Counted from the stretch's first letter, positions 34,784-61,349 are shown. The stretch is DNA of 64,000 nucleotides from Candidatus Portnoybacteria bacterium (GCA_016208745.1 JACQXN010000020.1:9062-73061), one strand, 5' to 3'. The notes: generated by a model from the sequence alone, not told the origin. Translations and numbers: made by a program.

Positions 34784-34856
34784 TGTCATTCTGGGCCCCT
34801 ACCCGTCCGGCAGACGGGAACCCGCAATCTAGATTCCCGTTTTCACGGGAATGACA
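34784..34856. mobile_element. MITE of the TGTCATTCCCGC-TIR family (REP-like hairpin pair)
   Basis: It starts TGTCATTC and ends GGGAATGACA, with internal hairpins CCCGTCCGGCAGACGGG and TTCCCGTTTTCACGGGAA. Related copies are at 2330-2412, 22785-22865 and 52780-52849. Confidence 0.55.
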
Positions 34857-49798: not shown

Positions 49799-50842
49799 AT
49801 GAGAATTTCTATTCTGATTCCTTGCCACAACGAAGAGCGGTCAATAGAAAGATGCGTCAAATCGTGTTTGGAGCAGACGAGAAAACCCGATGAGATTATC
49901 GTTGTGAACGACGGCAGCACCGATAAAACCGCCCAGATTCTGGCGGGTTTTGGCGACCAAATAAAAGTGGCTAATATTGAAAAGGCGACCGGCAATAAAA
50001 GCTATGCCCAGGAATTTGGGTTGCAATTTATAACCGGCGACATATTTATTGCCACAGACGGGGACACTTTTCTAGACAAAGATTTTGTCAAAACGATTGA
50101 GGAAGATTTTCTTGCCGAGCCCAAGCTGGCGGCAGTTGGTGGCTATGTCAGAAGTTTAAAGTATAATTGGTTGACCGCCTGTCGGGAAATGGATTATATC
50201 CTTGGGCAGGATTTATATAAAGTGGCCCAGGCAAGCATTGATTTCCTTTTTGTTATTCCCGGATGCGCCGGCGCTTTTAAGACGGATATTTTCAGACAAT
50301 ATATTAAATTTGATCACGACACCCTAACCGAAGATTTGGATTTTACATACAAGCTTCATCTTAATTATTTCAAGATTAAATATAACAAAAAGGCGATTTG
50401 CTATACGCAAGACCCCTTTACGCTTGGAGCCTATATTAATCAGATGAGGCGCTGGTTTGGCGGCGGCTGGCAGAATTTGATTAAGAACTTTCGGATTGCT
50501 AACCGGCCGGCCAACGCGCTTGAGCTTTCTTTAATGTATATTGAGGGGCTCATCTTTTCTTCCTGCCTCTTTATTTTCCCTTTGGTTAATATCCTCTTTT
50601 TTGAGCGGTTTATGAGCGCCTATTGCGTTTTTGTGCTTATGCTGGGTCTTTACTGCTCAATTAAAAGAAAAAGAATTGATCTTCTGCTTTTCTCCCCGCT
50701 TTATCTTGTTTTGGTTTTTATAAATTCATGGGTGTTTTTAGAGCAGTTTGTTAAAGAAGTTGTCTTGGGGCGAAAAAATCTGGATTGGTTTAAGCCGGAG
50801 AGATTTAAAAACGAGGAAATGAATCTAGCGCAGAAAATTTAA
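49799..50842 (+). CDS. Processive family-2 glycosyltransferase (PgaC/IcaA/NodC-like; QxxRW motif)
   Basis: GT-A N-terminus ISILIPCHNEERSIERCVKSCLEQT, DxD (TDGDT), and QMRRWFGGGW (QxxRW), with C-terminal TM helices. Confidence 0.8.
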   Translation: MRISILIPCHNEERSIERCVKSCLEQTRKPDEIIVVNDGSTDKTAQILAGFGDQIKVANIEKATGNKSYAQEFGLQFITGDIFIATDGDTFLDKDFVKTIEEDFLAEPKLAAVGGYVRSLKYNWLTACREMDYILGQDLYKVAQASIDFLFVIPGCAGAFKTDIFRQYIKFDHDTLTEDLDFTYKLHLNYFKIKYNKKAICYTQDPFTLGAYINQMRRWFGGGWQNLIKNFRIANRPANALELSLMYIEGLIFSSCLFIFPLVNILFFERFMSAYCVFVLMLGLYCSIKRKRIDLLLFSPLYLVLVFINSWVFLEQFVKEVVLGRKNLDWFKPERFKNEEMNLAQKI

Positions 50843-50861
50843 TTTTAAAGGGCAAACTTAT

Positions 50862-51347
50862 ATGCTTCCAAACGGATTATCGCTTATCGTGCATTTACTG
50901 ATTTTATTTTTAGTCTTTCTTAAAAGAACGATTGATTTGGCTATTCAAAAATTAGGATGGTATATTTTAAGATTTAAAATAAGTTTCTGGTTTAGAAAAA
51001 AATTGATTGTTTTTTTAATTGGCCAGCCGGGGAATATATTGTCCAGAAAAATCCTTTCTTATGCGATAGTGCTGTTTGTTTTTTCCGCTATTTCTTCTTT
51101 GATGATAATTTCAATGTGGCCGCGCTTAAGCACAGATTCAAACATAGAGCTTGTTGGGAGCGTATTAAAAAATAATTTTGCGGTTGCTGATGAAAGGGCC
51201 GCGGAAGTCTTTATCAAAGATGATTTTGATGTGGAGTATATCAATGTTTTGCCTTCATCTGATGACATTTCTTATCCGGAGCAAGACGTTTTTGTAGCGC
51301 TCCTGCCGGTTTCTGAAGATATCAAAGAGCCGATTAATAATAATTAA
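50862..51347 (+). CDS. Small membrane protein, possibly PgaD/IcaD-like accessory subunit of the GT2
   Basis: 161 aa with 2-3 TM, immediately downstream of the GT2 gene. The functional link is inferred from position only. Confidence 0.4.
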   Translation: MLPNGLSLIVHLLILFLVFLKRTIDLAIQKLGWYILRFKISFWFRKKLIVFLIGQPGNILSRKILSYAIVLFVFSAISSLMIISMWPRLSTDSNIELVGSVLKNNFAVADERAAEVFIKDDFDVEYINVLPSSDDISYPEQDVFVALLPVSEDIKEPINNN

Positions 51348-51393
51348 ACCAACGCTCAAGCCCGGCGCTAGACGCTAATCAACTGACCAAAAA

Positions 51394-52749
51394 ATGAAAA
51401 AAATTTATTTAATTCCAATTTATATCCTCTGTGTAAGCCTAATCTTTTCGCCGCTTAATTTCTTGTTGGCGGCCGATAAAGTTGATTTGGCCGGATACGC
51501 AATGAGCCGTTTGAGCGGTCTGTCTTTTGGCTTGTTTAATCAAGACCAAAATCAGTCAGAAGAACTAATCTTGTTAGACGGGGATATCTCTGAAGAATTT
51601 TCCTTGCTTTCGCCCGGCGCGCCATTTGGCCCCAATCTTATTAAAAATCCCTCGCTGGAGACAGCCGGCCTTTTAAGCGGTTTGCCGGAGTTTTGGTCCC
51701 ACGGAAGTTGGGACAAAAATAATCCAGTTCCAAGCTACCCGGTTTCTGGATTTGACGAAGAAAGAGCGGTTAGGATAGATATTGATAAATACGTTGGCGG
51801 AGACAGCAAATGGTATTTTGAAGACGTGGAGATTGCCGCTGGCAAGCATTATCTTTTTTCGGATTCATTTAAGTCTACAATTCCCAGCGTTTTAACTGCC
51901 AGATTCCTTTTAGCCGATAATACTTATCGATATTTTGATGTTGCTAATTTGCCTGCTTCATTTATTTGGCAGACAGCCTCGCAAATGATAACCGCGCCTT
52001 ATAACGCAAAATCGCTGACAATTTTCCATTCAATAAGAGGTAATGGTTCGTTGACTACTGATAACTTTTCTTTAAGAGAAATACCGGTCAGCGGCGGATT
52101 TTCTCAAGGTTTTGTTTCTTTGGATTTTGATGATGGTTGGGCGCTTACCTATAAAAACGCTTTGCCGATTTTAAACAAAGCGGGTCTAAAAAGCACGCAG
52201 AGCATAATCAGCGGTAGCATAAAAGATTGGCATTATGTTAATAAATCTCAGATTTTAGATATGCAAAATTCCGGACACGAAATTGCTTCGCATACAAAAA
52301 CGCACGCAGACTTAACTCGATTTTCAGCGAGCCGGGTGAAAGATGAAGTAGCCGGCTCAAAGAAAGCTTTATTATCGCTTGGCGTGGAGGCAATCAATTC
52401 ATTTGTGTATGCTCACGGAAAATACAATAACCAAGCAGAGGAAGCCGTAAAGGATGCTGGCTTCATAAATGCAAGAACCATTGATATTGGTTACAATACA
52501 AAAACATCCAATCCATATTTATTGAAAAGTCAGGTAATCGCATTAAACACTAGTTTTGATGAAGTAAAATTCTGGATTGACAGAGCGATTGCCGATAAAA
52601 CTTGGGTGATTTTGGTTTTTCATCAGATAGATTATAGCGGTCAAACATATAGCGCTACCCCAGAAATGTTGCAGCAAATTGTTGATTATCTAGTTTTACA
52701 GAATGTTTCGGTTTTGACCAATTCGCAAGGCGCGGCATTGCTTGAATAG
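51394..52749 (+). CDS. Secreted polysaccharide deacetylase (NodB homology) with an N-terminal CBM-like domain
   Basis: Signal peptide, a CBM-like segment (NLIKNPSLE...), then NodB motifs VSLDFDDGW and HEIASHTKTH. Confidence 0.75.
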   Translation: MKKIYLIPIYILCVSLIFSPLNFLLAADKVDLAGYAMSRLSGLSFGLFNQDQNQSEELILLDGDISEEFSLLSPGAPFGPNLIKNPSLETAGLLSGLPEFWSHGSWDKNNPVPSYPVSGFDEERAVRIDIDKYVGGDSKWYFEDVEIAAGKHYLFSDSFKSTIPSVLTARFLLADNTYRYFDVANLPASFIWQTASQMITAPYNAKSLTIFHSIRGNGSLTTDNFSLREIPVSGGFSQGFVSLDFDDGWALTYKNALPILNKAGLKSTQSIISGSIKDWHYVNKSQILDMQNSGHEIASHTKTHADLTRFSASRVKDEVAGSKKALLSLGVEAINSFVYAHGKYNNQAEEAVKDAGFINARTIDIGYNTKTSNPYLLKSQVIALNTSFDEVKFWIDRAIADKTWVILVFHQIDYSGQTYSATPEMLQQIVDYLVLQNVSVLTNSQGAALLE

Positions 52750-52779
52750 TTTTTGAATTGAATCATAGGCTCTGTTATT

Positions 52780-52849
52780 TGTCATTCCCGCGAAAGCGGG
52801 AATCCAGGCTCTTTTTTGAATCTAGATTCCCGCTTTCGCGGGAATGACA
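52780..52849. mobile_element. MITE of the TGTCATTCCCGC-TIR family (inverted pair of REP-like hairpins)
   Basis: TGTCATTCCCGCGAAAGCGGGAATCCAG...ATCTAGATTCCCGCTTTCGCGGGAATGACA. The two halves are reverse complements of each other. Confidence 0.6.
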
Positions 52850-52923
52850 AGACTGAGTATTATGTAATTCAAGCAGGAAGTTTTTTAAAAACAAAATAAA
52901 ACAAAAACATAAGGAGGCAAAAG

Positions 52924-54162
52924 ATGAAAGCAAGATTGAACGGTGTTTTTTTGGTGGCTTGTGCGGTTTTTTTCTTATTAACCTTAACCAGCGCGAGTTT
53001 CGCGTATGAACTGCCAAAGATGGTCGGCATTACCTGTGATGACGGGCAAGCCGATTCTTTGGAAAGAATGCTGTCTGTCACGATCCCTCTTGGGCTCAAG
53101 GTTGACCTTTTTTTGGTTACTGATTTCCTTGATGAAGGGGATTGGTCTATTGACTGGGCCAGGGCGAAAGAGCTCCAAACTCTTTATCCCGGCCTAGTTA
53201 AAATCAATAGTCACTCAAGGACTCATCCCTACTTTACGTCGCTTACCAATGCGCGATTGATTGATGAGACGCGCGGCTCAAAGCTTCAGTTCTCGGCTCA
53301 CGGCATTAATACAGATGACATGGGGATCGCCACGCCGTATGGCGACTTCAACCTTAAGGTCTTGTCTTTTGTGGCAAGATATTATCCTTGGCATCGGGCG
53401 GCTTGGGATTATGATGGTGATGGCGTGATCAACAAATGGCCTTTAAATGATTGTCAGTTGGAGATCTTTGAGCCGACACCGAATATGCCGGGCGAAGAAG
53501 TGATTGCCCGGGTCCAAGAAGACATAGCGCAAGGTGGACTTCCATTGCTTTTATTCCACGAATTTACGCCGGCTGGCGTTGTGCCGGGAGATTGGCAATA
53601 TCCAATTGAGGAATTCAAAAAAATTGTAAATTGGATTGCCGCAAACAGTGACACGATTAAATCTGTCACGATTTCGGAGGCACTGCATCTAACCGACGCC
53701 CCAAATTTGGTGAAAAACTATTCTTTTACTAACCGGAATGTTAATGGTTGGGCGAAGAATTGGTCGCGGAGCGGCGCGGGAGTTACGATCAATACGGCTC
53801 ACCAGGGCAATTTTCCTGAATTTACAAACAGCTTGCGAATTGTCGGTGGTTCTGTGGAGCGCAAAGCCTGGAACGATCAGGTGCCAGTGGATGAGGGCTC
53901 CGAATACATTATCAAGATGTATCAGAGCTGCCAGAATTGGGTCGCGGGCGGTTGGTGCGTCTGGGTTGATGAATTTAACTTAGACGGATATTATATTGGC
54001 GGCCAACGGTTAGGAGGCAACTACTGGAACTTCGTTGGCTGGCGGTATTATCAATATCAGCCTTCACCCGGAACCGCCAAAGCTTCTATCCAACCTTATG
54101 TAGAGGCGGGCAGTCGGTTGACTCTGTTCGTTGATTCAGTGGAGATGAGGAAGCTGCCATAG
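52924..54162 (+). CDS. Secreted polysaccharide deacetylase (NodB) with a C-terminal CBM-like domain; paralogue A
   Basis: Signal peptide, NodB motifs (ITCDDGQAD, NSHSRTHP), and a C-terminal CBM-like domain (NLVKNYSFTN...FVDSVEMRKL). Confidence 0.75.
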   Translation: MKARLNGVFLVACAVFFLLTLTSASFAYELPKMVGITCDDGQADSLERMLSVTIPLGLKVDLFLVTDFLDEGDWSIDWARAKELQTLYPGLVKINSHSRTHPYFTSLTNARLIDETRGSKLQFSAHGINTDDMGIATPYGDFNLKVLSFVARYYPWHRAAWDYDGDGVINKWPLNDCQLEIFEPTPNMPGEEVIARVQEDIAQGGLPLLLFHEFTPAGVVPGDWQYPIEEFKKIVNWIAANSDTIKSVTISEALHLTDAPNLVKNYSFTNRNVNGWAKNWSRSGAGVTINTAHQGNFPEFTNSLRIVGGSVERKAWNDQVPVDEGSEYIIKMYQSCQNWVAGGWCVWVDEFNLDGYYIGGQRLGGNYWNFVGWRYYQYQPSPGTAKASIQPYVEAGSRLTLFVDSVEMRKLP

Positions 54163-54257
54163 ATAATTATTTCCCCCTTTATAAAAGGGGGATTCAGGGG
54201 GATTTTTAAAATCCCTCCCAGCCTCCTTTTTTCAAGGGAGGAGTAAGAAAACAAATA

Positions 54258-54294
54258 CACCCGACGCAAAATAAAGCGTCGGGTTTTTAATTTT
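54258..54294 (+). terminator. Intrinsic terminator, CACCCGACGC-N8-GCGTCGGGT plus T5
   Basis: Perfect stem plus TTTTT. It is duplicated after the next paralogue at 55685-55718. Confidence 0.6.
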
Positions 54295-54397
54295 AGCAGC
54301 ACAAAAAACTTGACAACATTATTGTTGTGTGTTAGATTGGTTGATTCAAAGAGTGAGGAGAAATTCCTTAAAAACAAAACAAAAACGGAGGTAAAAA

Positions 54398-55621
54398 ATG
54401 GAAACAAGAAAGGTAGTAAGTATTTGGATGATTATTTTAGCGGTAACTTTTATGGTAACCGCGAATTCGGCCGCTTATGAGCCGCCGGCCAAGTGTACAA
54501 TCTTTTTTGATGATGGTCAGAGGTCAATTTATGACATCGCCTTGCCTATAATGGCGGCGAGAAACCTTAAGGCCGTAATTTGCCCTAGGGCCGATTGGAT
54601 GGGTTTGGGAGAAGGCTGGGTGATGAACTGGGAAGAGGTCTCGACTCTGAAGACGCAATATAAGTGGGAAGTTACCAGCCATGGAATAGACCATCCAGAT
54701 TTCACCACATTGTCAGACCCGGATCTGGAATGGCAGATGATAGGTTCCAAGGATGCATTTGCCGACCACAATATTATTGTTAGGGGCATCGCAACGCCTT
54801 TTGGTGCTTACAATGGCAAGGTTTTGTCGGCTATCGCCAGAAACTATTTTTGGCATCGCACAGCAGACGCAGGGGTGGATTCTTGGCCCTATAATGACTA
54901 TATGCTTAAGGTTATAGAGCCAAAAAGGGACACGCCGCCTGAAGATGTAATTACGCAACTTCAGGACGCCTTTGCTCAAGGCCAATGGCCTAAGCTTTTG
55001 TTTCACAATCTCGTGGATGGGGTGCCGTTGGATTATCAATACAACTCGGCGGACTTCGCCCAGATTATGGACTTTATCCAAGCAGAGAGAGACCGGGGAG
55101 CCGTTAAGGTTGTGACGGTTACGCAAGGTTTGAGGTTGCCTGCTGGCAACAACTTGGTGCCAAACAGCAGCTTTGAGAATTTAAAACCCAACGGTTGGCC
55201 AAAAAATTGGTGGCTGAATGATGGGGCTGATTCAAGCAAAGTCTTCTTGGACAACGCTAATCACGGTAATTTTCCAAAGCCGAAAAACTCCATCAAGATT
55301 ATTGGTGATGCTCTGCCGCAAGGCATCCAATCAGCCAAAATCGCAGTCAGCAGTAATTCTGAGTATATCGTCAAGATGTTTCAGAATGTTCAAGATCTTG
55401 TTGCTGGTGGTTGGAGCGTCCATGTAGACGAATTTGACTCATCTGGCGCTTATATCGGGACTCGGTGCCTTGGCAACAACTGGGATAATTTCTTTGACTG
55501 CCGGTATTATGAATATCAGCCATCTGTCAAAGCCGTGAAAACGGCTATCATAATTTCAACTTGGGAAAACAGCGAGTTGACGCTACGTGTTGACTCGGTT
55601 GAATTCCGGAGATTAAATTAG
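54398..55621 (+). CDS. Secreted polysaccharide deacetylase (NodB) with a C-terminal CBM-like domain; paralogue B
   Basis: Same architecture as 52924..54162 (IFFDDGQRS, SHGIDHP, C-terminal ...VDSVEFRRLN). This is a tandem duplicate that includes the downstream repeat and terminator. Confidence 0.75.
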   Translation: METRKVVSIWMIILAVTFMVTANSAAYEPPAKCTIFFDDGQRSIYDIALPIMAARNLKAVICPRADWMGLGEGWVMNWEEVSTLKTQYKWEVTSHGIDHPDFTTLSDPDLEWQMIGSKDAFADHNIIVRGIATPFGAYNGKVLSAIARNYFWHRTADAGVDSWPYNDYMLKVIEPKRDTPPEDVITQLQDAFAQGQWPKLLFHNLVDGVPLDYQYNSADFAQIMDFIQAERDRGAVKVVTVTQGLRLPAGNNLVPNSSFENLKPNGWPKNWWLNDGADSSKVFLDNANHGNFPKPKNSIKIIGDALPQGIQSAKIAVSSNSEYIVKMFQNVQDLVAGGWSVHVDEFDSSGAYIGTRCLGNNWDNFFDCRYYEYQPSVKAVKTAIIISTWENSELTLRVDSVEFRRLN

Positions 55622-55684
55622 CAAAAAGGGGAATAAATCCACCCCACCCCTCCTTTTTCAAAGGAGGGAGTAAAAAAACAAATA

Positions 55685-55718
55685 TACCCGGCGCAAAGCA
55701 ATGCGTCGGGTTTTTAAT
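55685..55718 (+). terminator. Intrinsic terminator (duplicate of 54258-54294)
   Basis: ACCCGGCGC-N9-GCGTCGGGT plus TTTTT. Confidence 0.55.
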
Positions 55719-55768
55719 TTGTCCGGCCTTTATTTTCAGGAAGTTATCCACAATAAACTTTTGACGTC

Positions 55769-56240
55769 TTGACAGCATTTTACTATTTGCTAAACTAATA
55801 TAACGCCTTAAAAAGGCGCTAAAAAACCATAGATTAAAATTAGAAAACAAAATTAGAATTTAGATTTAAACCACCTACGGAGGGTAGCGAGAATCGTAAT
55901 GCAAGAGCCCGATAAGCTCACACATTACATACTGATTGACTAGAAGGGTGGTTTTTTTATTTTCTCGTCAAAAATTTCAAGTGTTAACGCAGAAATTTTT
56001 GTAACGAGAAAATAACCCCGCATTTATTCTTACCAAAGGGCAAGAAGACCAGTAAACGAAGGCGCAGGTCTCAAGGCCGGAGCCGTTTCGCGCAATAATA
56101 CAGAAATAGATAAACTTGGCTGGAATAAGTGCGGGGTTGAAAACAGAATTTATTGTCCGCATACCCGCCGTCGCCAAGGCTTTGGCGGGCAGGCGCGGGA
56201 GATTCTTCTCCGTCCGCAAATGCGGACGGAGAAGAATGAC
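55769..56240 (+). ncRNA. Copy A of a conserved promoter plus structured non-coding element of unknown class
   Basis: Promoter TTGACA-16-TAAACT, then hairpin H1 (AAACCACC...GGTGGTTT plus T-run), hairpin H2 (16-bp stem), a domain H3 closed by a 15-bp stem ACCCCGCAYTTATTC/GAATAAGTGCGGGGT, and a 17-bp perfect hairpin at 56195-56236. It is homologous to 62808-63205 with compensatory changes. Confidence 0.5.
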
Positions 56241-56548
56241 AGAAGAAAGTTAATCCAAATTTTAACATCCGATTGTTAATCTGGCGCATAGGGGGCGAAG
56301 TTCTATAAATAATTTTTTTATAAATCCCTCCCAACCTCCCCTAAAGGGGAGGAGTAAAAAATTCCCCTCCTTTAGGAGGGGTTAGGGGAGATTTAGTAAA
56401 AGGTCGACATTGCCTGCTTTCCGCTTTTAGCGGTTTTCTGCCAAAAGCAGGGCAGTGAACTAGCACATTTTAAAAATAAAGGCAGAAAACAGATATTAAC
56501 GAATTGCGGATTAACGAATTTTAACGCGTTAGTTCGTTAATTCATAAA

Positions 56549-57412
56549 ATGATACAAAAATCTATGAAAAAAGTTTTCGTTACCTTAACAGTTTTATCGT
56601 TAATGGTATTGACGGCGGCTCCTGCTTTGGCTGGTCATCGTCCTTCAAGACACCAAATGCCAGCTAATGACAGCGATATCACAATTAATATTGATAATGA
56701 GGCGACTGTTACCAACATCGTTTCTGTCGGAGCTTACACCGGCGGCAATACCTCTAAAGGCGATGACGGCGGCGACGGCGGCGACAGCGGCGAAGCAGAA
56801 GTTGAAGGAGCTAAAGGCACTGCCACTTCCGGCGACGGCGGCGACGGCGGCGACGGCGGCAATGGCGGCACAATCACCTCTGGTGATGCAGATGCGAGCG
56901 CCTATATTGCTAACGTAGTTAATACCAATTTGACTTCAGTTGATGCTTGCGGTTGCGAAGAAGGAGAAGAGGAAGATGGCTGTGGATGTGAAGATCCTTG
57001 CGGCTGTCAGTCTCGCTGCGGCGGCTCTCAACAAGGGGATGACTGTGGTTGCATTGATGACATCAAAGTTGACATAGAAAACAAAAAGACTGATGTTAAC
57101 AACAATGCAGGAGTTATGGCCGACACAGGTTTAAATGAATCCAAAGGCGATGACGGCGGCAATGGCGGCGACAGCGGCGAAGCAGAAGTTGAAGACCAAG
57201 ACAAAGACAGAGACAACAGATGGCATCGCGGCGGCTGCAATACTTGCGGCAGTGATTCAGAAGACAGCGAATGCTGCCCTGAAGCCACTTCAGGTGATGC
57301 AGGCGATGGCGGCGACGGCGGCAATGGTGGTGAAATCACCAGCGGCGCAGCTGCGGCTACAGCCAAAGTATTTAATCTGGTTAACACCACTGTTACCAGA
57401 GTTCGCAGATAA
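56549..57412 (+). CDS. Secreted Gly/Asp/Cys-rich repeat protein
   Basis: Signal peptide, two internal repeats (SKGDDGGxGGDSGEAEVE...TSGDAxxxAxxxNxVNTxxT), and a CGC-rich metal-binding-like segment. The antisense ORFs are spurious. Confidence 0.6.
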   Translation: MIQKSMKKVFVTLTVLSLMVLTAAPALAGHRPSRHQMPANDSDITINIDNEATVTNIVSVGAYTGGNTSKGDDGGDGGDSGEAEVEGAKGTATSGDGGDGGDGGNGGTITSGDADASAYIANVVNTNLTSVDACGCEEGEEEDGCGCEDPCGCQSRCGGSQQGDDCGCIDDIKVDIENKKTDVNNNAGVMADTGLNESKGDDGGNGGDSGEAEVEDQDKDRDNRWHRGGCNTCGSDSEDSECCPEATSGDAGDGGDGGNGGEITSGAAAATAKVFNLVNTTVTRVRR

Positions 57413-57737: not shown

Positions 57738-58346
57738 ATGGAGGTAAAGACGAGAAAAATTTTAAAAGTTATTTTACTTTTTTCATTAGTTTTGCCTCTG
57801 TCAGCCCAAGCGGCGTTGTTTGACGATTTTGTTAGCGGGATTGAAGATTGGGTTTCTGAACAAACAGGCAGTCAAACAAATAGTTCGGGCAATGTCCAGA
57901 TAAAAAACGAAGTAAAAGTTGAAGCTTCAACCGGCGGAAATTCTGTTGGTTCAGGCGGGGAAATTAAACAGGGCGAACAAAAAACCGAAATTGAAATAAA
58001 AAACATTATCAACGGACAGGAAATAGAGCCGGTTAATATTAATTCTTCAAGCAGCAAGGCAAAAGTGGAAATAAAAATAGAGGCCAATGATGGAAAAATT
58101 GAAGTTGAAAGAGAAATTGAAGTTGATTCGGAAAAAAGCGAGCAGAATTACCAGATTAATGCGGATAATCAAAATTCCCAAGATGATGCAAGCTCGCAAG
58201 AGTCTGCTGGCGCAGGCACAGATAGCGGCGTAGAAACGGAAAAGGAAAATATATTGGAAAAAACCGCAACAACAACTTCGGATTTCTTTTCAGCGATTTT
58301 TGAAAGCATAAAATCTTTTTTTGAAAATATATTTAGTATTTTTTAG
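57738..58346 (+). CDS. Secreted hypothetical protein sharing the (S/T)GGNS motif
   Basis: Signal peptide with a cleavage site ...LSAQA; acidic with low complexity. Confidence 0.5.
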   Translation: MEVKTRKILKVILLFSLVLPLSAQAALFDDFVSGIEDWVSEQTGSQTNSSGNVQIKNEVKVEASTGGNSVGSGGEIKQGEQKTEIEIKNIINGQEIEPVNINSSSSKAKVEIKIEANDGKIEVEREIEVDSEKSEQNYQINADNQNSQDDASSQESAGAGTDSGVETEKENILEKTATTTSDFFSAIFESIKSFFENIFSIF

Positions 58347-58544: not shown

Positions 58545-61349
58545 ATGAAAGCCAAACAGAGCAGGAGGGGAGATAATTGTTTTTTAACTAATTTAACTCG
58601 GGGAAAACAGAAAAACTTTATTTTAATTCCCTTACTGGTTATCAGTTTGGTGGTTTTTAATTTTCCCGCCATATCGGTTTTAGCCGAAGAAGTCCCGACT
58701 GACGCGCCAGCAGACACAACTTTAAGCCAAGATGCGCCAGCGCCTGCAGAAACTCCTGCGCCAACGGAAAATCCTGCTCCGCCGGAAGATGTGGTTATTG
58801 ACACCGGGGACGCCAATGGCGGCATTGAGGTTGAAAACTCTGTTAACACCAATATCGCCCAGCTTGGCGATCCGGCAGAAAGCCAGACAGACTGGTCAGA
58901 GCTTGAAGGAGAAGTCCAAGGACAGGCTGATGAAGCCGCTCAAACAGAGGCTGAAGAAACCGGTGAAACTGAAACTCAAGAGACCGCAGAAACTTTAGGC
59001 GACAATCCTCCAGCCGAGCCAGAAGAAGAATTGGCTCAAGGCGTTGACAATAGCAATGACGAGGAAAATAATGACGGCCAAAACACACTCGATATTACAA
59101 ATGATAATCAGGCTGATGTTGGAAACGACGTTGTTGGAGTCGGCTCAACCGGCGACAATCAAGCAGAGGGCGAAGCTTGCGACGTTGATATTAATACCGG
59201 CGCTGTCAATTTATACACCTATTTAATAAATATCGTTAACACCAATATTTTTGCCTCTGATTTCTCCCAGTTTTTGTTAAATCTTTTTGAGGGTTTGCAA
59301 GGCGATATTGATTTATCCAGCGAAATTGCTTCTTCGGCAGAAGGATGCCTAGGCGATGATTGCATAGACAATATTAATATCACCAATAATAACAACGGCA
59401 CAACGACCAACGATGTTTTGCTTGACGGCTCAAGCGGGGGAAACACCGCGCAAAGCAATGGCGGATCGGCAACTATTAACACCGGCGATGTTAATGTGGT
59501 GGCCAATGTTTTAAATATCTTAAACTCCAATATCGTTGGCGCAAACTGGACTCAATTTATCATCAATGTTTTTGGCGATTGGATGGGCGATTTGGTTTTG
59601 CCCGGCAAGGACCAGATGCAGGATCAATTTGGCAATAGCGGCTCTGCCTGCTGCGGCGATTTGTCCATTACCAATTCAAATCAAGGCCAGATAATAAATG
59701 ATGTTAGCGTTATTTCAGACACCGGTTTAAACACAACGCAAGGCGATGGCGGCTCAATTAACACCGGCGACGCGCAAGCGGATGTTAATGTTTTCAATAT
59801 CGCCAATACCAATATAACCGGCAATAATTTCTTTTTGATGAAGGTTAATAATTTTGGCGACTGGAACGGCAGTATTTTCAGTCTGCCGCCCGGATTTTTC
59901 ATTAGCCAAGACGGAATGGGCTTTGAAATTATAAACGCTGGTTCAAGCAGCGGCGTGGGAATTTCTGGCAGCGACTTAAATATCACCAACAATAACGCCG
60001 GCGCGATTATAAACAGAGTAATCATCAATGCCTTTACCGGCGGAAACACCGCTCAATCATCAGGCGGCTCTGCTTCAATTAATACCGGCGATGCCCAAGC
60101 GATAGTCAATTTGATGAATATTATGAATACCAATATCGTGGGCAATAATTTCCTTTTGGGCATGGTTAATATTTTTGGCAACTGGCAGGGCAATTTGGCC
60201 TTTGGCCGGCCAGACAACTGGATTGGTTCCTCTGCCGCCACCCTGCCTGATCCGGTCAGCCCGGGCGGCGAAATTGCCTATAACCTGGCCTACACTAACA
60301 AAGGCAATGCCGATGCGAGCAATGTTTTGGTCAAAGCCGGCTTCAATAAGGGGATTGTGGAAATCTTAAATAGCGGCGGCGGCTTTATTGACGAAGCAGC
60401 CGGCGAAATTATCTGGAATGTTGGCGATTTATCAATCGGCGAAACCGGCGCAGTTTCCTATGCTGTCCAGGTTAAAGATGATGTGCAAAATGACGTAAAA
60501 ACAATTGATACCACTTCTTCCATTTCAAGCCTTGAGAGCGACAATAACAGCCAAGACAACACAGACACTCTTTCGGTGGCTCTTTATCGCGGCAGTTCTT
60601 TGGGCGCTTTGGTTGGCGGGCCAAACGAAACTTTGCCGAATATGAAATTAACTCAAGCCAACAATGCTTATGATGGCGCCTGGCAAGGTGGCAGCATTAG
60701 TTTCTCTACCAAGCTTTTTAACGATAGTTCGGGCTCTTCTTATGACACGATTCTTTACAATAACATCCGATCAGTTTCTTCAACCGATATTCTAGACACC
60801 CAGCAATGGAATTTGGGCAAAGTTTTTCCCAATGAAGAGATAACAATTGATTTTGCCATTGTGGTTGGCGAAAATTTGCCGCCGGGCGAGTATCTAAGCT
60901 TTACCCAGGCGGCTGGCAAAGATGCTTCTGGCAACGCCAGCTATTCAACTATTGCTTCAAGCGTATTTAAAGTTGTAGAAGCTCCGGATACTGAAAATGT
61001 CGCGTCAGAAGAGGCAGCCGAGCTGAATGAAGAAGAGAATTCACAAAACAATATTGTGTCGGACATAAAAGATGTGGTTCAGGAAATATTAGCGCCTCTT
61101 AGACCAAAAACCATTAGCGCTTCGGATGAAAATGGGCCAGCAGTTGTTCGCGAAGTTTCAGCTTCAAACGAACAAGGTGGCGTTTTAGGGGATTTGCAAG
61201 AAGAGTCAAATAACAGACGCAGCTTAAATCTTTTTTCAGCGATTGGGTCTTTGGGCTGGTGGGGCTGGCTGATTATATTGGCTATCTTGGCAGCATTCTT
61301 GATTCTTCTGTTTTTGACAAAGAAAAGGAAAAAGGAAGAATCTTATTAG
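58545..61349 (+). CDS. Large cell-surface protein with four tandem ~60-aa repeats and a C-terminal TM anchor
   Basis: N-terminal TM/signal, an acidic Pro/Glu-rich linker, four copies of ...GGNTAQSxGGSAxINTGDxxAxVNxxNIxNTNIxGNNF..., and a C-terminal LGWWGWLIILAILAAFLILLFL-KKRKK anchor. Confidence 0.75.
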   Translation: MKAKQSRRGDNCFLTNLTRGKQKNFILIPLLVISLVVFNFPAISVLAEEVPTDAPADTTLSQDAPAPAETPAPTENPAPPEDVVIDTGDANGGIEVENSVNTNIAQLGDPAESQTDWSELEGEVQGQADEAAQTEAEETGETETQETAETLGDNPPAEPEEELAQGVDNSNDEENNDGQNTLDITNDNQADVGNDVVGVGSTGDNQAEGEACDVDINTGAVNLYTYLINIVNTNIFASDFSQFLLNLFEGLQGDIDLSSEIASSAEGCLGDDCIDNINITNNNNGTTTNDVLLDGSSGGNTAQSNGGSATINTGDVNVVANVLNILNSNIVGANWTQFIINVFGDWMGDLVLPGKDQMQDQFGNSGSACCGDLSITNSNQGQIINDVSVISDTGLNTTQGDGGSINTGDAQADVNVFNIANTNITGNNFFLMKVNNFGDWNGSIFSLPPGFFISQDGMGFEIINAGSSSGVGISGSDLNITNNNAGAIINRVIINAFTGGNTAQSSGGSASINTGDAQAIVNLMNIMNTNIVGNNFLLGMVNIFGNWQGNLAFGRPDNWIGSSAATLPDPVSPGGEIAYNLAYTNKGNADASNVLVKAGFNKGIVEILNSGGGFIDEAAGEIIWNVGDLSIGETGAVSYAVQVKDDVQNDVKTIDTTSSISSLESDNNSQDNTDTLSVALYRGSSLGALVGGPNETLPNMKLTQANNAYDGAWQGGSISFSTKLFNDSSGSSYDTILYNNIRSVSSTDILDTQQWNLGKVFPNEEITIDFAIVVGENLPPGEYLSFTQAAGKDASGNASYSTIASSVFKVVEAPDTENVASEEAAELNEEENSQNNIVSDIKDVVQEILAPLRPKTISASDENGPAVVREVSASNEQGGVLGDLQEESNNRRSLNLFSAIGSLGWWGWLIILAILAAFLILLFLTKKRKKEESY

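What the first reader, a model, noticed from the sequence alone, without database searches (positions are those of the whole stretch)
49799..55621. PNAG/ica-like exopolysaccharide locus: processive GT2 plus small membrane partner plus three tandem secreted deacetylase-CBM paralogues with domain order swapped in one
The GT2 at 49799 has a QxxRW motif (QMRRWFGGGW), diagnostic of processive beta-glycan synthases (cellulose/chitin/NodC/PgaC/IcaA). It is followed by a 161-aa 2-3 TM protein in the IcaD/PgaD position. Three NodB-type deacetylases follow. The first is CBM-NodB, while the second and third are NodB-CBM and are tandem duplicates. Each of those two is followed by the same CCTCC repeat and terminator, so the duplication unit included the 3' flank. 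This fits a surface polysaccharide that is synthesised and partially de-N-acetylated outside the cell.
Basis: partly seen in the sequence, partly recalled or inferred. Interest (0 to 1): 0.55.

Follow-up and report, generated by a model that had tools for sequence, protein, structure and literature searches.

The report
Conserved Patescibacteria surface-polysaccharide synthase locus
This locus of a tiny uncultured bacterium (Candidatus Portnoybacteria) encodes a membrane sugar-polymer synthase, a small membrane partner and three secreted deacetylases; the same cassette recurs in every Patescibacteria lineage sampled here and probably coats the cell with a partly deacetylated chitin- or PNAG-like polymer, although it is not a true pga/ica operon.

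Summary
All five + strand ORFs exist. The GT2 carries D, DxD, TED and QMRRW. The 161-aa protein has two TM helices. All three deacetylases are CE4 enzymes with intact catalytic residues and signal peptides. The CBM-like jelly-roll domain sits N-terminal in the first and C-terminal in the other two.

The GT2 folds like hyaluronan, cellulose and chitin synthases (TM-score 0.8). PgaC/IcaA is its closest named family, but at 143 bits against a 422-bit cutoff, and it lacks PgaC's N-terminal TM helices. The small protein is not homologous to PgaD. No PgaA or IcaC equivalent lies in the locus.

The locus is one instance of a cassette found across the sampled Patescibacteria:
- a GT2 (50-76% identical between classes);
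- a mini-TM partner with a G-L-S-x-I-I-H motif;
- a CE4 or DUF2334 deacetylase;
- usually a GH26 (Lic26A-like) or GH18 hydrolase, which this window lacks.

The partner occurs whole, split into two mini-ORFs, or fused to the deacetylase. The nearest non-CPR relatives fuse GH18-like, CE4 and GT2 in one protein.

Best reading: a synthase-dependent, β-linked GlcNAc-type polymer that is deacetylated outside the cell; the linkage is unknown. DA2 and DA3 are old paralogues (40% identity), yet their 3' flanks are 84% identical.

The parts
49799..50842 (+). GT2 synthase, 347 aa. It has a GT-A domain, interface helices and three C-terminal TM helices (about residues 237-263, 265-290 and 299-322), and no N-terminal TM helix. 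Motifs: D38, D87xD89, TED177-179, QMRRW215-219.
   Evidence: Pfam and NCBIfam. Invariant motifs in 35 orthologues. AF2 model with pLDDT 91.6. Foldseek best matches are HAS, BcsA and Chs. 34% identity to E. coli PgaC starting at PgaC residue 77. 100% identical to a Candidatus Portnoybacteria MAG protein.
50862..51347 (+). Small 2-TM partner, 161 aa. TM1 carries the conserved motif G-L-S-L-I-V-H. A basic loop follows, then TM2, then a juxtamembrane S-N-I-E-L-V motif and an acidic C-terminal tail that is probably extracytoplasmic.
   Evidence: No Pfam or NCBIfam family. Two hydrophobic segments. Homologues follow the GT2 in relatives: L093 at 33% and L094 at 32% identity. The TM1 motif starts just after the GT2 stop in 36 of 43 orthologous loci, against 3.7% of random windows. 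No homology to PgaD.
51394..52749 (+). DA1, 451 aa: signal or anchor, one CBM4/9-like jelly-roll domain (about residues 75-235), then a CE4 NodB domain (MT1 LDFDDGW at 243, MT2 HTKTH at 300, MT5 LVFHQI at 407). It is the orthologue of the large deacetylase of the cassette.
   Evidence: PF01522 at 82 bits and HfsH at 76 bits. 33-45% identity to the cassette deacetylases of L001, L003 and L005, in which the N-domain is repeated 2-5 times. Motifs. A gene caller elsewhere started it at an internal Met, giving 415 aa. The 451-aa form has the signal-like N-terminus.
52779..52850 (.). REP-like inverted repeat between DA1 and DA2, with 29-nt arms that are 97% complementary.
   Evidence: Related copies lie at 2360 and 34833.
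52924..54162 (+). DA2, 412 aa: signal peptide, CE4 NodB domain (ITCDDGQ at 36, HSRTH at 97, LLFHEF at 209), then a C-terminal CBM-like jelly-roll domain.
   Evidence: PF01522 at 37 bits and CBM_4_9 at E 0.021. 40% identity to DA3. Family invariants.
54207..54293 (+). 3' flank unit after DA2: a CCTCC...GGAGG hairpin followed by an intrinsic-terminator hairpin (54259-54284) and a T-run.
54310..54338 (+). Promoter-like site TTGACA-17-TAGATT ahead of DA3. The DA2 and DA3 leaders are similar (52877-52901 against 54360-54384, 84%).
   Evidence: This is a consensus match only.
54398..55621 (+). DA3, 407 aa: signal peptide, CE4 NodB domain (IFFDDGQ at 35, HGIDH at 95, LLFHNL at 200), then a C-terminal CBM-like jelly-roll domain (about residues 250-407).
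   Evidence: PF01522 at 45 bits. AF2 model with pLDDT 93.7. Foldseek matches the N-domain to CE4 structures (7ax7, PplD 6dq3, SpPgdA, PgaB-N) and the C-domain to CBM16, CBM4 and CBM70. 163 representative proteins show this full-length architecture at E<1e-30.
55634..55720 (+). 3' flank unit after DA3, the second copy of hairpin plus terminator (55686-55711). It is 84% identical to the unit after DA2.

Best explanation
The locus is a synthase-dependent surface-polysaccharide system, and one instance of a cassette conserved across the sampled Patescibacteria.

Proposed mechanism:
1. The cytoplasm-facing GT2 polymerises a UDP-activated sugar, most likely UDP-GlcNAc, into a β-linked chain. It threads the chain through the membrane.
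2. The GT2 has only three TM helices of its own. The small partner encoded directly downstream probably supplies the missing helices. Its TM1 carries a conserved G-L-S-x-I-I-H motif. This would parallel what PgaD and IcaD do for PgaC and IcaA, without homology to them.
3. Outside the cell, three membrane-tethered or secreted CE4 deacetylases, each with a CBM4/9/16-like chain-binding module, remove part of the N-acetyl groups. The product would be a partly cationic polymer.
4. In most relatives a GH26 (Lic26A-like) or GH18 hydrolase trims or releases the chain. That gene is not in this window.

Shown here: the folds, the catalytic motifs, secretion signals, synteny, and the gene fusions. Inferred: the sugar, the linkage, processivity, physical contact between GT2 and partner, and the biological role (a coat or adhesion polymer of an episymbiont).
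For: GT2:
- D, DxD, TED and QxxRW are invariant in 35 orthologues.
- The AF2 model (pLDDT 91.6) matches hyaluronan synthases at TMq 0.78-0.80, then BcsA and chitin synthases.
- PgaC_IcaA is the best NCBIfam hit at 1e-41. Identity to E. coli PgaC is 34%.

Conservation:
- The top 120 homologues are 59-76% identical and about 340 aa long. All those carrying a taxon name are Patescibacteria.
- Saccharibacteria and Zambryskibacteria orthologues are 51-59% identical, while the next non-CPR hits are 36% or lower.

Synteny:
- GT2-small-deacetylase(-GH26) is seen in L001, L003, L005, L008, L010, L094, L097, L101 and others.
- Among 21 independent loci with at least 4 kb downstream, a CE4 deacetylase is adjacent in 16 and a GH26 in 14.
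- Three further loci (L103, L117, L118) have a DUF2334-type deacetylase instead.

Partner:
- The TM1 motif lies directly after the GT2 stop in 36 of 43 loci, against 3.7% of control windows.
- The module is fused to the deacetylase N-terminus in L110, L114, L117 and L118, and split into two mini-ORFs in L007-L010.

Coupling of the three activities:
- In Bryocella and Sphingomonas pituitosa the non-CPR homologue is a single GH18-like/CE4/GT2 polypeptide. A GH18-like segment lies about 1.2-2 kb upstream of the GT2 match in some 45 other non-CPR loci.
- L117 has TM-module/DUF2334/GH18 with a DLDWE motif.

Deacetylases:
- The catalytic Asp, the Asp-His-His triad and the catalytic His are conserved.
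- All three have signal peptides.
- The CE4 and CBM folds are confirmed.
Against: - No biochemical data exist, so the sugar and the linkage are unknown.
- The GT2 scores far below the PgaC/IcaA equivalog cutoff (143 against 422 bits).
- Three TM helices plus one or two from the partner is fewer than in the characterised translocating synthases (the PgaC and PgaD comparison is partly from my own knowledge, partly). NodC, which has a similar helix count, makes short oligomers and is not known to export a polymer (own knowledge). Translocation is therefore not assured.
- QxxRW also occurs in non-processive membrane GT2/GT21 enzymes such as ceramide glucosyltransferase and HpnI (own knowledge; weak Glyco_transf_21 hit).
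- This window has no hydrolase gene.
- The closest solved relative of the cassette GH26 is a β-1,3-1,4-glucanase, which does not obviously fit a GlcNAc polymer.
- The motif-3 Arg of CE4 is not evident in DA1-3.
Confidence: 0.7

Rival explanations
1. It is a genuine PNAG (β-1,6-GlcNAc) pga/ica-type system: the GT2 stands for PgaC/IcaA, the small protein for PgaD/IcaD and the deacetylases for PgaB/IcaB.
For: PgaC_IcaA is by far the best named family (143 bits, against 61 for the next and 56 for NodC). Identity to E. coli PgaC is 34% over the whole GT domain. A small 2-TM gene follows the synthase, as in pga and ica. The DA3 NodB domain also matches PgaB-N (3vus).
Against: All equivalog cutoffs are missed by a wide margin: PgaC 143/422, IcaB 31/248, PgaB 28/322. 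The small protein has no homology to PgaD. There is no PgaA porin, no IcaC, and none of PgaC's N-terminal TM helices. The hydrolases associated in relatives are GH26 (Lic26A-like) or GH18, not GH153 or GH20. The CBM fold matches chain binders for β-1,4 and β-1,3 glycans.
Confidence: 0.3
2. It makes a chitin- or chitosan-like β-1,4-GlcNAc polymer: a bacterial chitin synthase plus chitin deacetylases.
For: In some CPR orthologous loci a canonical GH18 (chitinase family) with DGIDLDFE or DLDWE catalytic motifs replaces the GH26 (L103, L117). The nearest non-CPR homologues examined are GH18-like/CE4/GT2 fusions. Weak Chitin_synth_1/2 hits are precomputed for most orthologues. A NodB-CBM homologue (P0126) directly follows a 494-aa GT2 with a Chitin_synth_2 hit. 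CBM16- and CBM4-like folds bind single β-1,4 chains (binding specificity from own knowledge).
Against: NodC and chitin synthase models score much lower than PgaC/IcaA (56 bits and E 0.013 against 143 bits). GH18 association is confirmed in only two CPR loci; GH26 is the usual partner. The GH18-like domains of the fusion proteins lack an obvious DxDxE motif inside the domain.
Confidence: 0.35
3. The secreted deacetylases, and the hydrolases in relatives, are offensive or scavenging enzymes. They would act on host or environmental glycans such as peptidoglycan, chitin or β-glucan, and would be only loosely linked to an unrelated membrane GT2, for example a lipid or protein glycosyltransferase.
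For: CPR bacteria are episymbionts with reduced metabolism (own knowledge). Orthologous deacetylases are giant multidomain surface proteins with Big_7, PKD, He_PIG and GSDH domains. The closest solved CE4 relatives include a xylan esterase and peptidoglycan deacetylases. The closest solved GH26 relative is a lichenase.
Against: The GT2 is linked to a deacetylase in at least 19 of 21 loci while the flanking genes differ. The synthase partner module is fused to the deacetylase. Hydrolase, deacetylase and synthase form one polypeptide in other phyla. The GT2 has the full synthase fold.
Confidence: 0.1

Closest known systems
E. coli PgaCD/PgaB and staphylococcal IcaAD/IcaB (PNAG systems)
   Same: A GT2 with D, DxD, TED and QxxRW that is 34% identical to PgaC over the GT domain. 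A small 2-TM gene lies immediately downstream. An extracytoplasmic CE4 deacetylase is encoded in the same locus. It is a synthase-dependent design with no Wzx/Wzy or ABC exporter in the locus.
   Different: The GT2 has no N-terminal TM helices. All equivalog cutoffs are missed. The partner is not homologous to PgaD, carries its own conserved GLSxIIH motif, and can be split or fused to the deacetylase. There is no PgaA or IcaC. The deacetylases carry CBM4/9/16-like modules. The hydrolase of the wider cassette is GH26 or GH18 rather than the GH153 fused in PgaB. No c-di-GMP module was seen.
Hyaluronan synthase (Cv-HAS, XlHAS1), BcsA and fungal or oomycete chitin synthases (membrane-embedded processive GT2)
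   Same: These are the best structural matches over GT domain, interface helices and TM helices (TMq 0.7-0.8, E 1e-17 to 1e-11).
   Different: Sequence identity is 13-19%. The window protein is much smaller (347 aa) and has three TM helices rather than six to eight (helix counts for the known enzymes from own knowledge). It has no PilZ domain or other accessory domains.
NodC/NodB (chitooligosaccharide synthase and deacetylase)
   Same: The pairing of GT2 with a CE4 NodB-fold enzyme, a small synthase with few TM helices, and the QxxRW motif.
   Different: NodC scores 56 bits against a 550 cutoff and NodB 32 bits against 240. NodB is cytoplasmic (own knowledge), whereas DA1-3 have signal peptides and CBMs.
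GH18-like/CE4/GT2 tri-domain proteins of Acidobacteriota and Sphingomonas (uncharacterised as far as I could find)
   Same: They are the nearest non-CPR GT2 homologues (25-36% identity) and combine the same three activities.
   Different: All three activities are fused in one protein of 1100-1185 aa. In this locus they are separate genes, with a mini-TM partner, and the hydrolase is absent.
C. thermocellum CelH GH26 module (Lic26A, a β-1,3-1,4-glucanase)
   Same: The GH26 of the cassette in relatives matches it over its full length at E 5e-39.
   Different: It is not encoded in this window. The substrate of the CPR enzyme is unknown.

Membership tests
Membrane-embedded processive GT2 synthases (BcsA/HAS/CHS/NodC/PgaC superfamily) | GT-A domain with the D, DxD, (T)ED and QxxRW motifs | tested here: met
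   D38, D87xD89, T177-E178-D179 and Q215xRRW219 are invariant in 35 orthologues. PF00535, PF13641 and PF13632 all score above their cutoffs.
Membrane-embedded processive GT2 synthases (BcsA/HAS/CHS/NodC/PgaC superfamily) | Interface helices and a TM bundle packed on the GT domain, as in solved synthases | tested here: met
   The AF2 model (pLDDT 91.6) matches Cv-HAS and XlHAS1 at TMq 0.78-0.80, then BcsA and Chs1/2. The protein has only three TM helices of its own.
Membrane-embedded processive GT2 synthases (BcsA/HAS/CHS/NodC/PgaC superfamily) | Processive polymerisation coupled to translocation | not testable with these tools
   This needs an enzyme assay or detection of the product.
PgaC/IcaA equivalog (TIGR03937) | Score at or above the curated cutoff of 422.3 bits | tested here: not met
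   143.2 bits.
PgaC/IcaA equivalog (TIGR03937) | N-terminal TM helices before the GT domain | tested here: not met
   The alignment starts at PgaC residue 77 and profile position 46. The ORF starts at the first β-strand of the GT domain, as in all orthologues. Longer homologues have soluble N-terminal extensions, not TM helices.
PgaD / IcaD | Sequence homology to PgaD or IcaD | tested here: not met
   hhalign of the small-protein alignment against E. coli PgaD gives 0.15% probability. No Pfam or NCBIfam hit. IcaD was not compared directly.
PgaD / IcaD | A small 2-TM protein encoded directly after the synthase | tested here: met
   161 aa, two hydrophobic segments, a 19-nt gap after the GT2.
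CE4 (NodB-fold) deacetylases | PF01522 above the gathering score | tested here: met
   82.1, 37.4 and 45.1 bits against 23.1. The CE4 fold is confirmed for DA3.
CE4 (NodB-fold) deacetylases | Catalytic Asp plus Asp-His-His metal triad (MT1 DD, MT2 HxxxH) and catalytic His (MT5) | tested here: met
   DA1 has FDDG at 243-248, HTKTH at 300 and FH at 409-410. DA2 and DA3 have the equivalents. In DA3 numbering, D38, H99 and H203 are invariant and D39 and H95 are at least 90% conserved across 32-34 family members.
CE4 (NodB-fold) deacetylases | Motif 3 Arg (RxPY) | tested here: inconclusive
   P-Y/F-G is conserved (P134 invariant), but the preceding residue is Thr or Ala, as in PplD 6dq3.
PgaB / IcaB equivalogs | Score at or above the curated cutoffs (321.9 and 248.35 bits) | tested here: not met
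   The best scores are 27.9 and 31.5 bits, both for DA1.
pga / ica operons | Export or modification partner: PgaA porin or IcaC | tested here: not met
   No further ORF of at least 80 aa lies on the + strand between 49.8 and 55.6 kb. The rest of the window was not searched specifically for these genes.
CBM4/9-type carbohydrate-binding modules | PF02018 above the gathering score of 25.9 bits | tested here: inconclusive
   Sub-threshold but recurrent: 15.6 bits in full-length DA2 and 18.2 bits on its isolated C-domain; 18-23.5 bits in four of ten domains tested, of both kinds. 28.5 bits in the L110 orthologue.
CBM4/9-type carbohydrate-binding modules | β-jelly-roll fold matching solved CBMs | tested here: met
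   The DA3 C-domain matches CBM16 (2zew, 2zey; TMt 0.76-0.79), CBM4-2 (2y64) and CBM70 (4d0q). The DA1 N-domain is homologous to it by hhalign at 93.4%.
Patescibacteria GT2 / mini-TM / deacetylase / hydrolase cassette (defined here) | GT2 orthologue at least 50% identical, followed by an ORF with the G-[LI]-[ST]-x-[ILV]-[ILV]-H TM1 motif | tested here: met
Patescibacteria GT2 / mini-TM / deacetylase / hydrolase cassette (defined here) | Adjacent CE4 or DUF2334 deacetylase | tested here: met
   DA1 is the orthologue of the cassette deacetylase. The DA2/DA3 type fills this position in L094 and L102.
Patescibacteria GT2 / mini-TM / deacetylase / hydrolase cassette (defined here) | Adjacent GH26 (or GH18) hydrolase | tested here: not met
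   tblastn with three cassette GH26 proteins and with the L117 GH18 domain finds nothing in the 64-kb window at E<1e-3.

The most novel reading that the evidence does not exclude
Patescibacteria share a minimal, split synthase. A 340-aa GT2 has lost the N-terminal TM helices. It depends on a separately encoded mini-TM peptide with a buried His (G-L-S-x-I-I-H), which also tethers the deacetylase to the synthase. Together they would form a previously undescribed synthase-partner-deacetylase machine making a partly deacetylated β-GlcNAc-type coat. That coat would be a core envelope or attachment polymer of these episymbionts. The window would be a lineage variant that triplicated the deacetylase and lost or relocated the hydrolase.
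Probability: 0.35. Interest if true: 0.75.

Novelty: new variant of a known kind. Interest (0 to 1): 0.55.

Why it matters
Very little is known about what covers the cells of Patescibacteria (CPR). They make up a large share of bacterial diversity and live attached to other microbes.

The GT2 is 50-76% identical across CPR classes, and the cassette is always wired the same way. That makes it a strong candidate for a core surface polymer. It could be tested directly in the few cultivated Saccharibacteria, whose orthologues are 51-53% identical.

The split and fused forms of the mini-TM partner are natural experiments on how small subunits complete synthase channels. The GH18-like/CE4/GT2 fusions in other phyla are another. 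Both bear on an open point for the PgaCD and IcaAD systems.

For the window itself the result is more modest: a correct but over-specific annotation ('PNAG/ica-like') is replaced by a better-delimited one.

Tried and rejected
- A word-index homologue search with DA3 returned only DA3 itself. The exhaustive profile search was needed.
- Longer GT2 homologues (400-470 aa) were checked as possible GT2-partner fusions. They carry soluble N-terminal extensions or mis-called starts, not the partner.
- Homology of the partner to PgaD was rejected.
- A GH26 or GH18 gene elsewhere in the window was not found.
- I tried to read the rest of the 82-kb source contig beyond the window. Only short Logan contigs were returned, so whether the genome has a GH26 elsewhere stays open.
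- FtsZ adjacency as a functional link was rejected. It is shared only with the closest Portnoybacteria relative (L093), and the flanks differ in every other locus.
- Rfam found no credible family in 49.5-56.7 kb. All hits are far below gathering scores and lie on the hairpin repeats.
- Nine literature searches found no description of this cassette in CPR. PMC9530719 mentions PgaC only in non-CPR bins.

Full report
**1. Observation**

The five + strand ORFs are as described:
- GT2, 49799-50842, 347 aa
- small protein, 50862-51347, 161 aa
- DA1, 51394-52749, 451 aa
- DA2, 52924-54162, 412 aa
- DA3, 54398-55621, 407 aa

Upstream lie HisRS, HIT, S21, YqeY, YbeY, FtsA and FtsZ. The GT2 is 100% identical to a protein of a Candidatus Portnoybacteria MAG.

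Pfam places the GT2 in Glycos_transf_2, Glyco_tranf_2_3 and Glyco_trans_2_3. It places all three downstream proteins in Polysacc_deac_1, above the gathering score. The small protein has no family and has two hydrophobic segments. All three deacetylases start with a signal-like hydrophobic segment.

DA2 and DA3 are 40% identical over their full length. DA1 matches them only in the NodB part, at about 25%.

The 3' flanks of DA2 and DA3 share an 86-87-nt unit that is 80-84% identical. It consists of a CCTCC...GGAGG hairpin followed by a classical terminator.

One nuance: the CCTCC hairpin alone occurs at about 17 sites in the window. It is a dispersed element and not a private mark of the duplication.

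**2. The GT2**

In an alignment of 35 orthologues, D38, D87xD89, T177-E178-D179 and Q215-x-R-R-W219 are invariant.

The AlphaFold model is confident (pLDDT 91.6). It shows a GT-A domain, interface helices and three C-terminal TM helices. Foldseek against the PDB ranks hyaluronan synthases first (TMq 0.78-0.80, E about 1e-17). Cellulose synthase BcsA and chitin synthases follow. The DPM-like PcManGT is lower, at 0.65.

The best named family is PgaC_IcaA, at 143 bits against a curated cutoff of 422. NodC scores 56 bits. Against E. coli PgaC the identity is 34% over 243 residues, and the alignment starts at PgaC residue 77. PgaC's N-terminal TM region thus has no counterpart here. Longer homologues carry soluble extensions, not TM helices.

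**3. A conserved cassette**

The 120 best homologues are 59-76% identical and about 340 aa long. Every one that carries a taxon name is from Patescibacteria: Portnoy-, Pacebacteria or Minisyncoccia.

Scans of genome and metagenome contigs find orthologues at 50-59% identity in Saccharibacteria and Zambryskibacteria. Identity then drops sharply to 36% or less outside the CPR.

The flanking genes differ between loci, but the downstream genes do not. The order is GT2, a small no-family protein, a PF01522 deacetylase (often 800-2000 aa, with Big_7, PKD, He_PIG and CBM-like repeats), and a GH26 gene.

Among 21 independent CPR loci with at least 4 kb downstream:
- a CE4 deacetylase is adjacent in 16;
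- a GH26 is adjacent in 14;
- three more (L103, L117, L118) carry a DUF2334-type deacetylase instead.

FtsZ adjacency is shared only with the nearest Portnoybacteria relative.

The window has no GH26 or GH18 homologue. DA1 is the orthologue of the usual cassette deacetylase (33-45% identity). DA2 and DA3 represent a second type. In a close relative (L094, GT2 75% identical) that type occupies the cassette alone, also as a tandem pair, followed by a GH26.

**4. The small partner**

Homology of the partner can be traced stepwise:
- window to L093 and L094, at 32-33% identity;
- L093 to L001;
- L001 to Saccharibacteria and Zambryskibacteria.

An ORF begins directly after the GT2 stop with M-x(1-12)-G-[LI]-[ST]-x-[ILV]-[ILV]-H in 36 of 43 orthologous loci. 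These comprise 28 distinct sequences, 24 of which have the His. Only 3.7% of random windows in the same loci match the pattern.

The module takes three forms:
- one 2-TM protein, as in the window;
- two mini-ORFs: a TM1 peptide of 29-39 aa, then TM2 with a DUF3597-like tail (L007, L008, L010; split likewise in L009 and L108);
- the N-terminal anchor of the deacetylase itself (L110, L114, L117, L118).

It has no detectable homology to PgaD.

The positive-inside distribution in the window protein places the loop between the TM helices in the cytoplasm and the acidic tail outside the cell. This topology is inferred, not measured.

I infer that the partner completes the TM apparatus of a synthase that has only three helices of its own, and that it links the synthase to the deacetylase. 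The fusions show a functional link to the deacetylase. Contact with the GT2 is not shown.

**5. The deacetylases and CBM-like domains**

The CE4 motifs are present in all three proteins.

| Protein | MT1 | MT2 | MT5 |
|---|---|---|---|
| DA1 | FDDG | HTKTH | FH |
| DA2 | CDDG | HSRTH | FH |
| DA3 | FDDG | HGIDH | FH |

Across 32-34 members of the DA2/3-type family (DA3 numbering), D38, H99, P134 and H203 are invariant. D39 and H95 are at least 90% conserved. The motif-3 Arg is not evident; PplD (6dq3), the closest solved relative, also lacks it.

The DA3 model (pLDDT 93.7) has two domains:
- an N-terminal CE4 domain matching 7ax7, PplD, ArCE4A, SpPgdA and PgaB-N;
- a C-terminal jelly-roll domain matching CBM16, CBM4-2 and CBM70.

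The DA1 N-domain family and the DA2/3 C-domain family are homologous by profile comparison (93.4% probability, E 2.5e-7). Both give sub-threshold CBM_4_9 hits. The swapped domain order is therefore real.

The NodB-CBM architecture is itself a sizeable family. It has 163 representatives at E<1e-30, most of them matching over the full length. Outside the CPR, members also sit next to a GH26 (L087) or directly after a chitin-synthase-like GT2 (L088).

**6. What polymer?**

The GT2 is an inverting enzyme that uses UDP-sugars, so it makes β-linkages (family knowledge). CE4 enzymes in a biosynthetic context remove N-acetyl groups. This points to GlcNAc, or another HexNAc.

The cassette GH26 is close to the C. 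thermocellum Lic26A lichenase (E 5e-39).

In two CPR loci a canonical GH18 takes the place of the GH26. Its catalytic motifs are DGIDLDFE and DLDWE. In L117 it is fused as TM-module/DUF2334/GH18, which recalls the deacetylase-hydrolase fusion PgaB.

In the two non-CPR loci examined in detail (Bryocella, Sphingomonas pituitosa), the GT2 homologue is a single GH18-like/CE4/GT2 polypeptide. A GH18-like segment lies about 1.2-2 kb upstream of the GT2 match in some 45 other non-CPR loci.

These fusions argue strongly that hydrolase and deacetylase act on the synthase's own product. The GH18 mechanism needs a 2-acetamido sugar (own knowledge), which supports GlcNAc.

The linkage remains open. Sequence similarity favours PgaC/IcaA (β-1,6). 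The hydrolase and CBM context favours β-1,4.

**7. The duplication**

The DA2 and DA3 coding sequences are 52% identical at the nucleotide level, and 39% at third codon positions. Their 3' flank unit is 84% identical, and their leaders are also similar.

DA2 and DA3 are no closer to each other than to homologues from other lineages: 39-42% identity to L087 and L088, and 35-37% to the L094 pair.

The duplication is therefore old, or the genes were acquired separately. The conserved flank needs another explanation: selection on the terminator, gene conversion, or later spread of a composite repeat. I could not decide between these.

**8. Verdict**

The locus is a synthase-dependent exopolysaccharide system that works like pga/ica. 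It fails every membership test for those families.

It belongs to a Patescibacteria-wide cassette with its own partner protein. Nine searches of the open literature library found no description of that cassette.

I rate it a new variant of a known kind, with moderate interest (0.55).

Noticed in passing
L001:9618-13166, L003:9642-13757, L005:9376-15090, L008:13171-16752, L010:11514-13982: In the large orthologous deacetylases a CBM-like jelly-roll domain is inserted inside the NodB domain, between motif 1 (FDDG) and motif 2 (HTxxH). The spacing there is 180-215 aa, against 57 aa in the window's DA1. CBM-before, CBM-inside and CBM-after arrangements therefore all exist in this family.
   Followed up: partly
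L007:5260-5800, L008:11002-11591, L009:1157-1500, L010:11005-11484, L108:10015-10371: In Saccharibacteria and Zambryskibacteria loci the small partner is split into two mini-ORFs: a 29-39-aa TM1 peptide with the GLSxxxH motif, then a TM2 protein that often has a DUF3597-like tail. The first mini-ORF was not in the called gene lists for L007-L010.
   Followed up: partly
L041:7589-11146 (Bryocella elongata), L026:7811-11125 (Sphingomonas pituitosa), and about 45 other non-CPR loci: In these two loci the non-CPR GT2 homologue is a tri-domain GH18-like/CE4/GT2 protein of 1100-1185 aa. The GH18-like part lacks an obvious DxDxE motif. tblastn finds a GH18-like segment at the equivalent upstream position in the other loci. 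No characterisation was found in the literature library.
   Followed up: partly
L099:9001-12388: A tandem duplication of the GT2-partner pair (GT2, small, GT2, small) in one metagenomic CPR contig.
   Followed up: no
window 52779-52850; also 2360-2380 and 34833-34853: A REP-like inverted repeat (TTGTCATTCCCGCGAAAGCGGGAATCCAG, 29-nt arms, 97% complementary) sits between DA1 and DA2. Degenerate single copies occur elsewhere in the window; none is expected by chance.
   Followed up: partly
window, about 17 sites, e.g. 17904, 21314, 27865, 27889, 36148, 54222, 55649, 56335, 57536, 58378, 61493, 62721: Dispersed CCTCC(C)...GGAGG hairpins occur across the window (all 17 start positions). They may be a genome-wide terminator-like or REP-like element of this MAG.
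   Followed up: partly
window 55720-56548: An 830-nt stretch after DA3 has no + strand ORF of at least 80 aa. It holds a promoter-like site (TTGACA-16-TAAACT at 55769), several strong hairpins (for example a perfect 17-nt-arm palindrome at 56202-56237) and a hairpin plus T-run near 55870-55960. No Rfam family matches. It could encode small RNAs.
   Followed up: partly
window 56549-57412, 57738-58346, 58545-61349: Three secreted or surface proteins lie downstream: a Gly/Asp-rich protein with an internal repeat (GGNTSKGDDGGDGGDSGEAEVE...), a 202-aa acidic protein, and a 934-aa protein with repeated 'INTGD..NIxNTNI' units and a C-terminal TM anchor. They may be cell-surface components. None was analysed.
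   Followed up: no
window 51394 vs 51502: A public gene call for DA1 starts at an internal Met and gives 415 aa (L091). The longer 451-aa ORF adds a signal-like N-terminus and seems the better start.
   Followed up: partly
L014, L015 (haloarchaea), L016, L017 (Nitrosarchaeum), L088: Archaeal loci with GT2 homologues (27-31% identity) have DUF2334-type deacetylase genes next to them. L088, whose host is unidentified (a TackOD1-domain neighbour hints at an archaeon), has a NodB-CBM deacetylase directly after a 494-aa chitin-synthase-like GT2. The synthase-deacetylase pairing may therefore span both domains of life.
   Followed up: no
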